From Bacilli bacterium (GTDB taxonomy: Bacteria; Bacillota_I; Bacilli_A; ML615J-28; CAG-698), in the NCBI GenBank assembly GCA_050953045.1, contig JBMNLY010000002.1, positions 248,001 to 312,000 on the forward strand: a DNA stretch of 64,000 bases, given 5' to 3'. Position 1 is the stretch's first letter. Every line of letters begins with the position of its first letter. Shown piece by piece: positions 21,001-33,000 of this stretch. The position numbers were made by a program.

Positions 21001-24000
21001 AGCGGAGCGGACGGCTAAAACCGCAGCTTTGCTTCTTATTGTTGCCTGATAAAGCTTTTCGATTTCTTCACGTTCGATGAAGGGTCGAGCGCCGTCATGG
21101 ATTAAAACAACCTCGCTGGAACACTTTTCCATACCGGCTTTGACACTATCTTGCCTGTATTTTCCGCCGACAACAAATTCTATCTTAGAAAGATCAGATA
21201 CCATTGCTTTCACCGCCGAAATTTCTTCTTCCCGGCAGGCCAAAACAACTTTTCTGCAAAGCGGAACTTTCAAAAAAGTTTCTAAAGCTAACCTAAACAG
21301 AGGTTTATCCTTGATTCGGTAAAAAACTTTATTGTATTCAAGCCCCGTCCTTTCCCCTTTGCCGGCAAGAAGGATTAAACAATCAAACATCTTCTTCACC
21401 CTAATCTTTCAAAATATCATCAAGAAAGTCGTCACTCAAATCAATTCCTAGTTCATGTAAATCCAAGTTCATATTTGTCTTTGGCAGGTAAATTGAATAA
21501 TTCTGGGTATATTTTGGATCGGCAGCCAAATTTAAAGCTTCATAACCTTCTCTTAAGAGCGTTTCCGCCTTGGAGTCTGCCGCATTCTCGCTAGAAATAA
21601 TTCCAATCGCTTTTTCGATTTCATAACGAATTTCATTAAAAGAAATTTCTGTTCTTAAAAAAATACTCTTATCCGAATTTAAGAGAGCAAGCAAGCGATT
21701 ATAGCCTTCTTTTCTATCAATTAACAAAGCGAAAACTTCCTCTTCCAAACGGTAAATTTTTGTGTTTTTAATGTTAAGTTCAGTGCTTGCTTGAAGAAAA
21801 AAATTCGTTATCAGCACTTCACCAACATCTTTTCCGGCCTGCTGATTAACTTTATTTAAATTGGTAGCTTTTATTAAAACAAGCGCCAACCAATTATTAC
21901 GTTCATAAATGAGATGGGCAGTTTCTAAAAGCGCGCTCCGGTCATAAAACCTCATTTTAAAACGCTCAAAATCAGTCCGATGAATTATTAGGTATTGATG
22001 ACCTTCAAAATTAATATTGCTTTCTTCAAACCAGAGATTACCTTTAGTGGTTTTTAAACGATAATAAAGTTTCTGCAGTTTATCAGTTAAATTTCGTCCC
22101 GAAATAATGGGCAAATCTTCTTGTACAACGGTCGAAAGGAAATTGTTTTCTCCCAAGAGATTCTCAGAGACCCCGAGTAGATCCATCATTTCGCGGGTAA
22201 GAATGTATCTTCGGGCTTTACTATCAAAATAACAGAGAGGCTCGCCCATAAAATTAAAATAGTTATAAAGAGTTGACATATTGAAAGTAGCGTCCGGAGA
22301 AGACATTCCGTAACTCATCAAGACGTAGCCCAGAAGTTTTCCTGACGAAATAATTTTCCGTTTCTTTAAGTCAAGTTTTCGAGTTTTTCCGTCATCGAGC
22401 GTGATAACGATTCGATAGTCCCTTTCCTCCGGGGTTCTTAGATAATGAACAAAAACATCAAACCCCATTTCTTGGCTGTCAACCAAAATACTGTTGACTG
22501 TTTCTTCATAAAGCTTCTTAATGTTCTTTTTCAAACCGAGCAAACTCGAAAATTCCTCGGTAAAATTTATTAATTTTGCTTTTCCGCTAAGGTATCCATA
22601 AATCCTATTTCCGGTGCTGTTTGCTGCAACCTTAATTAAATTTAAGCGTTTATAAAAAACACAGTTTACAAAAAGATAAAAAATAAGGTTTATCAGCAAA
22701 ACAAGGAGCGCATATCCGGCAGAAAGTACCAATAATGGTAAATTAAAAATTTTCAGTTTTGGAAAGAGATAAGCAACAATATAACTTAAAAGAGCGGTAC
22801 CTGTCAAGATTAGATTTAGCCAGGGCACTCTTCTTTTCTTTTCAAGCATGCTAAAAAACAGCACCAGTACTAATAAAAGTACCGGTATCAGCAAATAGTC
22901 TTTATTGAGGATGAACTCGACAATCTTGTTCATAACCTCCTCCTCATCTTACAAATAACTCTGCGCTCATTCGATTTGTCGCAAGAGGAATAGAATAAAC
23001 ATCACAAAGTCGTAGTAAAGCGGAAACATCAGGTTCATGCGGTTGAGCTGTCAGGGGATCGCGGAAGAAAATTACCATATCGAGTTTTCCTTTCGCAACC
23101 CTGGCGCCGATTTCTTGGTCACCGCCCAGCGGTCCGGATTTAAAGCAGTGGACACTTATGCCGATTTCTTCCATTACCCGCTTTCCGGTCGTTCCGGTTG
23201 CATATAAATCATGCTCCTGGAAATACTTTTTATGCATGCGCACAAAATCCAACAATTCTTCTTTTTTCTTATCATGAGCAATCAGAGCAATTTTCATTAT
23301 ATACACTTCCTTTATATTTTTTATTATAGCACAGAATATGAGAGAAGCAAATATTTTATTTGGTAATCAAATACCGATCGAGCATTTCTTCCAACCGTTC
23401 GGGCGTAAGTTTCATATGAATATTTCCGTCAATGGTAACGGAAATATTCCCTGTTTCTTCCGATACAACGATTGTTAAAGCGTCGCTTCTTTCACTGATG
23501 CCAATCGCCGCTCTGTGCCGAGTTCCTAAAGATTTCGGAACTTCATATTTATCGGTTGAGGGCAGATAAGCACCAGCACACATAATCTTGTTTTTTCGAA
23601 TAATCACCGCGCCATCATGGCAGGCCGTCCCCGGAGTAAAGATTGTCGTCAGTAGTTCCTGGGTAATCGTTCCTTTAATCTCGATTGCTTTCTCAATATA
23701 ACTATTGAGGTTTTCTTCTCTTTCAATTGTAATCAAAGCTCCCATTCTTCTTTTTGATAAATATTCAACAGTAGATAAGAGAATATTGATGATCTCCTTT
23801 TTTTCTTGTTTCGTAGAAAAAAAAGCTACGTTCTTATTTGATGTGAAGAAAGTATCTAAAGAGTGGCGAATTTCCTGAGTATAAATTATAACTAAAAAAC
23901 CCAAGCTCCAAAAGATCAGATAATTAAGCAGAGTTAAAAACAAGTTTAACTGCAAGAAAAAGACAAGCAAATAAAAGAAACCAAAAGCAAGTAAGATGAG

Positions 24001-30000: not shown

Positions 30001-33000
30001 TTATTTCTTTATAAACTTTATCGTATCTGATTCCTAAATTTTCAAAGACAATCTTATCAACATCGGCTTTTGAAACATTTTTTCGCCCCGCAAGACGGCA
30101 AACCAAACCCGCTTCATCCATAATATCAATTGCTTTATCGGGAAGTTTACGGTTCGCAAGAAAACCGGAAGAAGAAACAATATACCTTAAAATATGATCT
30201 TTATATTTAACTTTATGAAATTCTTCATATTTATTAGCAATTCCGCTGATAATCTCAAAAGCTTCTTCCTGAGATGCTTCATCTACAAAAACATTTTGAA
30301 AGCGCCGAGATAAAGCTTTGTCTTTTTCAATATAGCGATAATATTCTTCGAGAGTGGTGGCGCCGATACATTTAATTTCCGAACGAGCCAGAATCGGTTT
30401 GAGGATATTTGCGATATCTAAGGTTCCTTCGCTGGAACCGGAACCGACGATATTGTGGATCTCATCTATGAAAATTACTGAATAAGGATTTTTAATTCTA
30501 TCGATTACTTCAATTAATCTTTCTTCCAAATCGCCACGGTATTTTGTTCCGGCAATAATCATACCTAAATCAAGCCGATATATATTTATCTTCGGATTAA
30601 CTTTAAGCATCTTCATTGCGACCCCTTCAATTAAGGCGCTCTTCCCGACACCGGCACTGCCGATTAACATCGGGTTATTTTTTTGCTTTTTAGAAAGAAT
30701 CCGGATAATCTTATCAATGATATCTTCACGACCGATAAAGGGATTCAAGCGATCTAATTTGGCTTCTTTTGTAATATTGACTAAGTAATTATTGTTTAAA
30801 TCATCGGAAGACTGTAAAGAATAAATATTATTTAACTCTTCTAAAAGCACCCCGATATCTATCTCGAGTCTTTCCAGAATATTCAAGGCAACAGAGGCCG
30901 GTGTGGTAAGCAAAGCATAAAATAAATGTTCGGAGAAGACATATTTGCTTTTTTCCAAAATTGCGATTGCTTTCGCATTCTTAATAATTTCAATTAATTT
31001 TAAAGTATAATTATTAGCATAGTTTTTTCTGAGCAAGATTATTTTCGAGATTTCGTTTTCAATATCTTTCTTCGACACTCCATATTCTAATAATAATTCT
31101 GAGCTGAGCGAATCCTTGGTATTTATTAGCGCTAGCAATAGGCTTTCGCTTCCGACCACCCCGAATCTGATTTTTTCTGCTTCTACAGTCGCCATAATCT
31201 TCTGACTTTGATGATCAAATTCAGGAAACAAAACTTCACCTCTTTCATTCTTTCTATTATCATTATATGAAAAAGACTTTATTAATTCCCTTTAATAAAA
31301 AATGAAAACGACTTTCATCGAGTAAATGCTTTTTTTATTTGTCGTTTTATAGTATAATATAACATATACAAATTTTAAGAAATGAGAGGTTTAAGACATA
31401 TGGGCAACACAACATATTCAAAAAAATTAATCGAAAAATTAAACGCTGATATTATTAAGTACTTTCCGCATTTGTTCTTGATTGATGAAGCTTATATGTT
31501 TAAAACCTTTTCCAACGTATCTCGCTTGGTAATGCTGGATCGCTATTCTCAAAAAGATATCAACCATGTTTCCTTAGGCATCGGCGATTTGGTAATTGTT
31601 GTCGTTAAGGATGATCCGAAATTTCCCACGCGCGGCATCGGTAATATAGTCGGCCTTGACGAGGAATATGCTTATATAGAGTTAGAAACCGAATACGCAG
31701 GAATGTGCGAAGATCTCGGTCCCGATAATATTATTAAAAGAAGAATTAACGAAGTTGATAAGCCGCTCGAACTCTTTTATGAACAAATCTGCCATCGGGT
31801 TGCGAATAATCTAGCTCAAGGGGAGACGGTTGAAATCGTCAATCAATTCTTCTACGAATTGAATGAAATGAATGTCGTTCCCGCCGGAAGAGTCCTTTTC
31901 GGAGCCGGTTCCCAAACTGCCGTTACCTATTTTAATTGTTTTGTCATGCCGTTTATTCACGATTCTCGAATCGGAATCAGCATGCACCGACAAAAAGTAA
32001 TGGAGATCATGTCCCGCGGTGGCGGTGTCGGCACCAACGGTTCGACCTTGCGGCCAAAAAATTCGCTTGCGAAAGGGGTTAACGGTAAATCAAGCGGCGC
32101 AGTCAGTTGGCTAAATGACCTGTCTCAGCTGACCCATCTTGTGGAACAGGGGGGGTCGCGTCGGGGTGCACAGATGATTATGCTTGCCGATTGGCATCCT
32201 GACATCATTGAGTTTATCGTCAGCAAGATGCAGAATCCGCGAATTCTTCTCTTCTTGATAAATAATCTTACTGATCCCGACATTATTGCTGCAGCAAAAA
32301 ATAAATTGAAATTTATTCCGCTTTCTCCCGAAGAAGTGGAAATCTATGAAAAGATTGTTGAACTCGGTGAGACCAATCCCGATCTCGTCAGCAAAGCTAC
32401 GCTCAAGCGAGCAACAGAGGTTTTAAGAGACCAAGGGTTCTTCCAAGTCCATCAGCCCGAATATCTTTCCGGTGCTAATATTAGCATCGCCATTACAAAA
32501 GAGTTTATGGATGCTGTTGAAAATGATTTGGATTATCAACTGCGTTATCCAGATATTGATAATTATTCAAAAGGCGAAAAAGCCGCTTATGATGAAAAGT
32601 GGCATCTTATTGGCGATGTACGATTTTGGGAAGAAATGGGCTATCCGATTAAGGTTTATAAAACAATCAGAGCCCGCGAACTTTGGAATTTAATCAATAT
32701 TTGTGCAACCTATTCCGCTGAGCCCGGAATCTTCTTTATTGACAATGCGAATGAAATGACGAATGCGAAAGCATACGGCCAACAGGTTGTCTGCACCAAT
32801 CCTTGCGGTGAACAGCCTCTTGCTGCTTATTCAGTCTGTAATTTAGCAGCTATCAATCTTTCCAATATGGCTGATTTTGAAAACAAAACTGTCGATTGGG
32901 AAAAATTAAGAAAAACAATTCGGACAACCATTCGCATGCAGGATAATGTTATCGACAGGACCACTTATTTCCTGGAAGAAAACCGTATCCAAGCGCTCGG

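What a model noticed while it worked through the whole genome (the two positions that open the first line are those of the whole stretch)
23356..31231. Order-wide giant SF1 helicase-like protein with 850-aa arm operonic with c-di-AMP synthase
A 1428-aa relative of the anti-phage Prometheus/DUF4011 helicases is a single-locus core gene in every genome of the order and sits in a fixed operon ahead of an ankyrin protein and the only diadenylate cyclase cdaA, in the place of the missing regulator CdaR. A defence ATPase has likely been domesticated as a nucleic-acid or ATP sensor that controls c-di-AMP synthesis through the ankyrin adaptor. This would be a new kind of c-di-AMP regulator and a case of an immune protein turned housekeeping.
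Evidence so far: g586 found in 60/60 order genomes, full length, one locus each; outside the order only short P-loop hits. cdaA follows in 16 of 16 informative loci, with the ankyrin gene between in 15. Walker A GxxGxGKT is kept; Walker B reads mostly DDAH/DDxH, with Asp for the usual catalytic Glu, about 850 residues later. Best NCBIfam is anti-phage ProA, E 2e-24; Atlas neighbours are AAA_11/AAA_12/DUF4011/MTES_1575 proteins; PDB best hit the SF1B helicase IGHMBP2. No YbbR/CdaR or DisA row in pfam.tsv. A ClpC-like gene with one intact Walker A often precedes it.
(Added by a program. Inside this text positions count along the whole contig: contig position 248,001 is position 1 of the stretch shown here. 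"Call 12" and the like, gene names such as g00115 and contig names such as C1 are that model's own, and its searches are not shown. The text may have been shortened before it was handed on; [...] marks where a part breaks off. The agent that wrote the report below was given it as the finding of a first reader that could run no searches.)

Follow-up and report, generated by a model that had tools for sequence, protein, structure and literature searches.

The report
Dead defence helicase in RadA's slot
A giant relative of anti-phage helicases has lost its motor and nuclease motifs, yet is kept as a core gene in two orders of uncultured Mollicutes relatives, where it sits in the chromosomal slot of the lost repair helicase RadA directly ahead of the only c-di-AMP synthase, which it may regulate.

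Summary
(1) The 1428-aa protein lacks the motifs of a working ATPase. It is collinear with DUF4011/ProA/Hhe helicase-nucleases and folds as an SF1 core, but has lost the Walker B Glu (24 of 25), motifs III, V and VI (arginine finger, 0 of 67 versus 18 of 18 intact controls) and the nuclease motif. It is still under purifying selection (dN/dS 0.04-0.21) and inherited vertically. (2) It is not confined to the order: 7 of 8 genomes of a sister order carry the same operon, with Walker A broken too. (3) It is not in CdaR's place, which is downstream of cdaA. In an outgroup family (5 of 5 loci) the same site reads hflX, nrdJ, clpC-like, radA, so the giant-ankyrin-cdaA cassette fills the RadA slot, echoing RadA-DisA. 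Control of CdaA rests on gene order only (61 of 61 loci). Five related families keep cdaA at this site without giant, ankyrin or CdaR, and two genomes lack the ankyrin. Binding could not be predicted. Domesticated pseudo-helicase: about 0.85; c-di-AMP regulator: about 0.4.

The parts
24726..29012 (-). Giant DUF4011/ProA-derived pseudo-helicase-pseudo-nuclease, 1428 aa: DUF4011-like N part (1-225), first half of RecA1 with Q motif and Walker A (226-310), helical arm in the domain-1C position (about 330-1060), second half of RecA1 with DD Walker B (1085-1165), degenerate RecA2 (1166-1325), degenerate Vsr-like nuclease (1335-1428)
   Evidence: weak DUF4011 Pfam hits in 12 of 25 members
24164..24733 (-). 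Ankyrin-repeat protein, 189 aa, with a conserved basic N-terminal helical cap; overlaps both neighbours by 8 nt; follows the giant in 59 of 61 loci
   Evidence: no match in G016 and G025
23356..24171 (-). cdaA, the only diadenylate cyclase found; DGA and RHR motifs intact
   Evidence: motifs per 10.1101/2021.05.26.445777 passages
29267..31231 (-). ClpC-like ATPase with one Walker A; ancestral resident of this site, upstream of radA in the outgroup; within four genes upstream in only 35 of 54 loci
29244..29259 (-). Terminator-like hairpin between the clpC-like gene and the giant (consensus match only; 13 found against 9.3 expected in shuffles)
22944..23306 (-). mgsA-like gene (MGS domain), optional member of the string
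21401..22933 (-). Membrane protein with PAS domains and a degenerate GGDEF domain; downstream of cdaA, i.e. on CdaR's side, in giant-bearing and giant-less families alike
20231..21399 (-). ispD and ispF, end of the same co-directional string and markers of the ancestral clpC-radA...ispDF site
31382..35266 (+). nrdJ and hflX, divergent flanking markers that identify the site as the outgroup's radA site

Best explanation
The giant protein is a DUF4011/ProA-type defence helicase-nuclease that has lost its catalytic motifs, is kept as a core gene in the slot where an outgroup has radA, and likely acts as a non-catalytic scaffold that, with the ankyrin protein, tunes the co-encoded cyclase CdaA. 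Shown: homology and collinearity with intact DUF4011 helicases, loss of motifs II (Glu), III, V, VI and the nuclease motif, purifying selection, vertical descent, the RadA slot, overlapping reading frames with ankyrin and cdaA. Inferred: no ATP hydrolysis, unwinding or cutting (from the known roles of these motifs); residual nucleotide binding in this order only (Q motif, Walker A and first Walker B Asp kept). Speculative: the retained helicase-shaped cleft or the long arm binds a nucleic-acid structure or a cellular partner and passes that state to the cytoplasmic DAC domain, by analogy with RadA/Sms, which inhibits DisA even as a Walker A mutant. About 0.85 for the dead, domesticated housekeeping protein; about 0.4 for the full statement including control of CdaA.
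For: Motif loss against 18 intact controls; SF1 fold with the arm in the 1C position. dN/dS 0.04-0.21 in 8 of 11 genome pairs that gave a value, like cdaA at 0.03-0.22. Gene tree recovers families f1, f2, f4. Kept in genomes without spo0A and murG and of only 0.8-1.0 Mb. Outgroup f6 has hflX, nrdJ, clpC-like, radA at this site in 5 of 5 loci, ispD/F behind in 4 of 5, and the clpC-like genes form one clade; RadA 0 of 51 in the order and 0 of 8 in f4. giant-cdaA linkage 61 of 61 plus all 7 f4 loci; it survives in G016 where ankyrin, clpC-like, the GGDEF gene and ispDF have all left the site. cdaA here has left its usual cdaA-cdaR-glmM operon. RadA/Sms and its K104A mutant inhibit DisA (PMC8645862 passages).
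Against: No physical evidence of binding. 16 cdaA loci from five related families (f13, f16, f18, f19, f28) have no giant or ankyrin, 12 of them still beside hflX; no orthologue was found in 9 such genomes searched, so CdaA works without the module. The GGDEF gene (55 of 57) and ispD/F (51 of 53) are almost as tightly linked, and a shared promoter ahead of the giant would alone keep the order; the loci are kin, not independent. Ankyrin has no match in 2 genomes that keep giant and cdaA. RadA was not found in the giant-less families either, so there is no one-to-one replacement. CdaA has no DNA-binding domain and is membrane-anchored, unlike DisA. Nucleic-acid motifs are altered and the protein is net acidic, like the controls, so nucleic-acid binding is not shown.
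Confidence: 0.4

Rival explanations
1. Domesticated pseudo-helicase with a housekeeping role on DNA, RNA or a large machine (a RecC/AddB-like dead subunit; comparison recalled), unrelated to c-di-AMP. cdaA simply moved into the same operon and shares its promoter.
For: Five families keep cdaA at the site without the giant; metabolically unrelated genes (ispD/F, mgsA, 5-formyl-THF cyclo-ligase) ride in the same string with similar fidelity; it occupies a DNA-repair slot; the AddB-like protein of G000 and G020 is a short 817-aa form.
Against: giant-cdaA is the only link never broken in 61 plus 7 loci; no partner enzyme identified; the short AddB was not followed up.
Confidence: 0.35
2. Still an immune protein: a non-catalytic phage sensor or decoy fixed in the lineage, possibly signalling through c-di-AMP or the ankyrin.
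For: Ancestry in ProA/Hhe and PDC-S37; a DUF4011 gene is core in P. aeruginosa (10.1101/2022.11.11.516204 passages); the arm is the least conserved part.
Against: Hhe defence needs its nuclease-site Glu (10.1101/2022.06.16.496414 passages) and the motif is gone here; single copy at a fixed housekeeping site across two orders with purifying selection throughout; five order genomes carry a separate intact DUF4011 helicase hit elsewhere, four fetched and in unrelated contexts.
Confidence: 0.15
3. Stand-in for SMC, or a HelD-like RNA polymerase recycling factor, using the long arm.
For: SMC not found in G000 or G084; HelD not found in G000, G020 or G084; HelD appears low in the fold list.
Against: SMC and HelD were also not found in giant-less G130; both work by ATP hydrolysis (recalled), which the motifs exclude; the arm is made of many short helices and matches neither at a meaningful score.
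Confidence: 0.07
4. Active but atypical SF1B helicase, as the first reader's 'ATPase' implies.
For: Q235, K258, T259, D1112 invariant in 25 of 25 and R1162 in 23 of 25 order members; both RecA folds are predicted intact.
Against: Walker B Glu in 1 of 25; motif VI pattern 0 of 59 and 0 of 67; Walker A pattern 0 of 6 in f4; the motif VI arginine is needed for hydrolysis (PMC3505976 passages).
Confidence: 0.03

Closest known systems
Anti-phage DUF4011 helicases ProA (NF058533) and Hhe (NF042953)
   Same: Collinear domain order: DUF4011 part, SF1B core with a long helical insert between Walker A and B, C-terminal Vsr-like domain; best family hit.
   Different: 85 bits against a cut-off of 1500, where intact controls score 935-1180; catalytic motifs lost; fixed, single-copy, vertical and in a housekeeping operon, where intact copies are patchy and in variable contexts.
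RadA/Sms-DisA module of Bacillus subtilis
   Same: A helicase-family gene directly upstream of a diadenylate cyclase gene (passage), at the site that holds clpC-like and radA in the outgroup; inhibition by RadA does not need its Walker A Lys.
   Different: No homology to RadA (85-fold larger cut-off gap aside, only a P-loop hit at E 0.006); the cyclase is membrane CdaA, not DisA; the f6 outgroup has no cyclase at the radA site; an ankyrin lies between; interaction untested.
cdaA-cdaR-glmM operon
   Same: Same cyclase type; regulators co-encoded with cdaA are the precedent for reading function from this operon.
   Different: CdaR 0 of 51 and glmM unlinked; the giant is upstream, cytoplasmic and has no YbbR domain.
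SF1B helicases Upf1, IGHMBP2, Senataxin, Aquarius
   Same: Predicted core fold; SETX Z 20.9, rmsd 3.9 over 319 residues, tied with UvrD.
   Different: Domain 1C is replaced by a 730-residue arm with no clear structural match; motifs III, V, VI absent.
Dead helicase subunits RecC and AddB (recalled)
   Same: Helicase and nuclease folds kept without catalysis; AddB keeps a Walker A (recalled).
   Different: Those are SF1A-derived subunits beside an active motor; no partner motor is encoded beside this gene.

Membership tests
ProA/Hhe DUF4011 anti-phage helicase | Score above the family cut-off | tested here: not met
   85.3 of 1500 bits (ProA), 19.8 of 2000 (Hhe); three intact controls also fall under the cut-offs at 595-1180 bits
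ProA/Hhe DUF4011 anti-phage helicase | DUF4011 part, SF1 core with long insert, C-terminal Vsr-like domain in that order | tested here: met
   collinear alignments; weak DUF4011 hits in 12 of 25
ProA/Hhe DUF4011 anti-phage helicase | Intact motifs DEASQ, GDxxQ, QGxE, NVAxTR | tested here: not met
   0, 0, 3, 0 of 67 and 0, 2, 3, 0 of 59 against 18, 18, 17, 18 of 18 controls
ProA/Hhe DUF4011 anti-phage helicase | Nuclease-site motif (ExDG, pattern recalled) | tested here: not met
   1 of 67, 2 of 59 by loose pattern; controls 8 of 18, so the pattern is not universal even there
ProA/Hhe DUF4011 anti-phage helicase | Protects against phage | not testable with these tools
   needs expression and plaque assays
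SF1B helicase | Two RecA-like domains, insert between Walker A and B | tested here: met
   domain 1C position per PMC3505976 passages
SF1B helicase | Catalytic Glu and motif VI arginine finger | tested here: not met
   Glu in 1 of 25; motif VI replaced by LLDLLLLCRKK-type sequence
CdaR/YbbR regulator | YbbR domains, membrane anchor, gene downstream of cdaA | tested here: not met
RadA/Sms | TIGR00416 homology | tested here: not met
   15.5 of 403 bits
RadA/Sms-like cyclase regulator (works-like) | Gene in the radA slot upstream of a cyclase | tested here: met
RadA/Sms-like cyclase regulator (works-like) | Binds and modulates the cyclase | not tested
SMC | Split ABC ATPase head, long coiled coil, hinge | tested here: inconclusive
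   core is SF1, no SMC family hit; arm matches to SMC proteins only at E above 0.003 with rmsd over 40
CdaA | TIGR00159 above cut-off, DGA and RHR motifs | tested here: met
   211 of 188.8 bits; motifs invariant or nearly so in 64 sequences

The most novel reading that the evidence does not exclude
An ancestor of this Mollicutes-related clade rebuilt a RadA-DisA-style checkpoint from unrelated parts: a phage-defence helicase-nuclease was disarmed into a nucleic-acid-sensing scaffold, dropped into the radA slot, and wired through an ankyrin protein to a membrane CdaA that had left CdaR and GlmM. This would be a new kind of c-di-AMP regulator and a case of a bacterial immune enzyme turned into a core pseudoenzyme, with graded decay visible between two orders.
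Probability: 0.3. Interest if true: 0.85.

Novelty: new variant of a known kind. Interest (0 to 1): 0.62.

Why it matters
Defence genes are usually patchy and mobile. Here one became a fixed, single-copy core gene across two orders, lost its catalytic motifs in steps (arginine finger and nuclease in both orders, Walker A in one), and is kept even in 0.8-1.0 Mb genomes without wall or spore marker genes. That makes it a clear candidate for an immune protein domesticated inside bacteria, and shows that DUF4011 helicase folds can have a use without catalysis, which bears on how ProA/Hhe sense their targets. If it also controls CdaA, it adds a third kind of cyclase regulator and a convergent RadA-DisA-like module. 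All three proteins can be tested in vitro although no member of the order seems to be cultured. Searches that found no description: 'DUF4011'+'helicase' (5 papers), 'diadenylate cyclase'+'ankyrin' (1), 'Prometheus'+'helicase'+'anti-phage' (5), 'ML615J-28' (25 of 74 listed); subscription journals are not covered.

Tried and rejected
Complex prediction of the ankyrin with the CdaA catalytic domain was not available, so binding is open. 'In place of CdaR': rejected on position and distribution. 'Order-specific': rejected; the class-wide search scored only 2 candidates per genome and missed G055, which a narrower search found. Sporulation- or wall-specific role: rejected, the giant is kept where spo0A and murG were not found. 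Decaying pseudogene: rejected. The 1179-aa ORF at 4376-7915 as SMC: rejected, 20.8 of 567 bits. Arm fold: no match at Z 8 or more among 48,161 chains and none at E 0.001; Atlas gave unnamed clusters at 0.91-0.92; internal repeats weak, best probability 40%. No intact DUF4011 subfamily came out as sister to the family, which sits on a long branch. Gain versus loss: RpoB left f4, f1+f2, f16+f19 and f13+f18+f28 as a four-way fork; a quick NrdJ tree without f2 nested giant-less f16 and f18 among giant-bearing lineages at SH-aLRT 95, which favours loss but does not settle it. The GGDEF gene as a GdpP remnant: a PAS_GdpP match lies elsewhere in 5 of 5 genomes. No Rfam match in the window; promoter-like sites no more than in shuffles. 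RNA-library contigs cannot show a transcript: one 7.3-kb contig spans 20234-27533 and cover over the clpC-like gene is low, a weak hint only; runs with small word shares were not used. The census of 59 proteins was selected by a DD-containing pattern, so Walker B counts come from the similarity-selected set. The 1.84-billion-protein search used only residues 1055-1200, so it says little about distant kin. Earlier scan notes: nothing.
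Full report
What is there. The minus strand carries a ClpC-like gene (29267-31231), the 1428-aa giant (24726-29012), an ankyrin protein (24164-24733), cdaA (23356-24171), an mgsA-like gene, a membrane PAS-GGDEF-like gene and ispD-ispF; nrdJ and hflX diverge on the other side. 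Giant/ankyrin and ankyrin/cdaA overlap by 8 nt here, with median gaps of -8 (62 junctions) and -7 (61 junctions) across loci, using first start codons. A terminator-like hairpin lies in the 254-nt gap after the ClpC-like gene (consensus match only). Record titles of relatives are Bacilli, Acholeplasmatales or Mollicutes MAGs. I take the order to be ML615J-28 from recalled placements of those names and from the two-family pattern of spore genes in PMC10868615 (passages); this name is inferred.

Distribution. The giant is in 30 of 30 relatives (27 in one ORF, two split in two ORFs, one across contigs) and 35 of 35 order genomes. Each of 51 order genomes has one DAC match, none has YbbR or RadA. 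In the window plus 64 loci, cdaA follows the giant in 61 of 61 informative cases, the ankyrin in 59 of 61, the GGDEF gene in 55 of 57, ispD/F in 51 of 53, and the ClpC-like gene precedes it in 35 of 54. These loci are kin, not independent.

It is a pseudoenzyme. I fetched 20 loci of the best outside hits; 18 hold intact DUF4011 helicases in unrelated contexts and two are the f4 giants. The giant aligns with the intact ones end to end. In 25 similarity-selected order members Q235, K258, T259 and D1112 are invariant, but the catalytic Glu is Asp in 24. Motif patterns DEASQ, GDxxQ, QGxE and NVAxTR occur in 0, 0, 3 and 0 of 67 homologues and 0, 2, 3 and 0 of 59, against 18, 18, 17 and 18 of 18 controls. 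The nuclease motif is gone as well, though my pattern caught only 8 of 18 controls. In f4 the Walker A pattern is broken in 6 of 6, the Lys surviving in 4. The motif VI arginine is needed for hydrolysis in IGHMBP2 (PMC3505976 passages), and Hhe defence needs its nuclease-site Glu (10.1101/2022.06.16.496414 passages). A model of residues 229-1428 (mean pLDDT 87.3, pTM 0.59) matches Aquarius, Senataxin, IGHMBP2 and Upf1 (SETX Z 20.9, rmsd 3.9, 319 residues, tied with UvrD). The arm sits in the domain-1C position, is all helical and has no clear match. Walker A to B is 819-901 residues against 569-899 in controls, so the arm is inherited and lengthened, not new.

It is a maintained core gene. dN/dS is 0.04-0.21 in the 8 of 11 genome pairs that gave a value, including the arm and C part, like cdaA. 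The gene tree recovers f1, f2 and f4 and the family is one clade apart from the intact helicases (FastTree, long branches). It persists in G016, G030, G008, G005, G010 and G055, where neither spo0A nor murG was found, so it is not a spore or wall gene.

Whose place it took. CdaR and GlmM lie downstream of cdaA (10.1101/2021.05.26.445777 passages), and several outgroup families show that layout (the glmM label is my reading of a 440-aa cluster). CdaR was not found in f13, f16, f18, f19, f6 or f9 either. The gene on CdaR's side here is the membrane PAS-GGDEF-like protein, which follows cdaA in giant-less families too. The informative comparison is family f6: 5 of 5 loci read hflX and nrdJ divergent, then ClpC-like and radA, with ispD/F behind in 4 of 5; 3 of 4 f15 loci have hflX beside radA; the ClpC-like genes are one clade with one Walker A. 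So giant-ankyrin-cdaA occupies the radA slot. In B. subtilis radA is directly upstream of disA, and RadA/Sms, also its Walker A mutant, inhibits DisA (PMC8645862 passages). The f6 site itself has no cyclase.

What counts against a c-di-AMP role. Sixteen cdaA loci of f13, f16, f18, f19 and f28 lack giant and ankyrin, 12 still beside hflX; nine such genomes searched whole gave only partial hits, while control G055 gave a full one. RadA was not found in f13, f16, f18 or f19. The ankyrin has no match in G016 and G025. Unrelated metabolic genes are linked nearly as tightly. Whether the module was gained once in f1+f2+f4 or lost in the others is unresolved. For it: giant-cdaA is the only link never broken, and in G016 it remains after every other neighbour left.

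Verdict. Shown: a disarmed DUF4011 helicase-nuclease kept as a vertical core gene in the radA slot of two orders. Inferred: it works without catalysis (about 0.85). Open: its partner. I put control of CdaA at 0.4, an unrelated housekeeping scaffold at 0.35, non-catalytic immunity at 0.15, an SMC- or HelD-like role at 0.07 (SMC and HelD are also not found in giant-less G130) and an active helicase at 0.03. It descends from ProA/Hhe but fails their catalytic membership tests. A core DUF4011 gene is known at species level in P. aeruginosa (10.1101/2022.11.11.516204 passages); I found no description of a dead, order-wide form in the searches, of which I saw listings only apart from the papers cited. 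No supplements were read; those of PMC10868615 might list this gene among order-level orthologues.

Noticed in passing
window 29267-31231 and L143-L145, L188, L220-L223: The ClpC-like gene with a single Walker A is an old orthologous clade. In the few genomes checked it is at this site where spo0A was found (G000, G003, G004, G084, G122, G070) and missing where it was not (G008, G005, G010, G016, G055); possibly a sporulation-linked Clp ATPase with a dead second ring.
   Followed up: partly
window 21401-22933: Membrane protein with PAS domains and a degenerate GGDEF follows cdaA across at least eight families, with or without the giant; in family f2 it is about 400 aa and has lost the GGDEF part. 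A candidate CdaA regulator in its own right.
   Followed up: partly
window 4376-7915: 1179-aa low-complexity and coiled-coil ORF, SMC-sized but not SMC (20.8 of 567 bits).
   Followed up: no
window 17163-18545 and 29076: A transposase-like ORF (by reading, not scanned) has about sixfold higher contig depth in RNA libraries X1 and X2, and contigs there join its end (18597) to 29076, 64 nt upstream of the giant's start; may be an insertion in another strain or an artefact.
   Followed up: no
L118 (G281:C3) 8747-16745: In one f28 genome an intact DUF4011 helicase lies three genes downstream of the orthologous ClpC-like gene; other f28 copies are elsewhere and not one clade, so probably chance.
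   Followed up: partly
G000:C5:302668-303651, G020:C15:14920-15894: The AddB-like protein is an 817-aa short form matching only the C-terminal part of the model, against 1188 aa in outgroup G100.
   Followed up: no
L055 9965-14174, L083 9992-14300: The giant is split into two ORFs in G013 and G027, both within the arm; assembly error or real split not determined.
   Followed up: no
L039, L041, L043, L066-L094: ispD and ispF appear fused (about 360-390 aa) in many relatives but are separate in the window.
   Followed up: no
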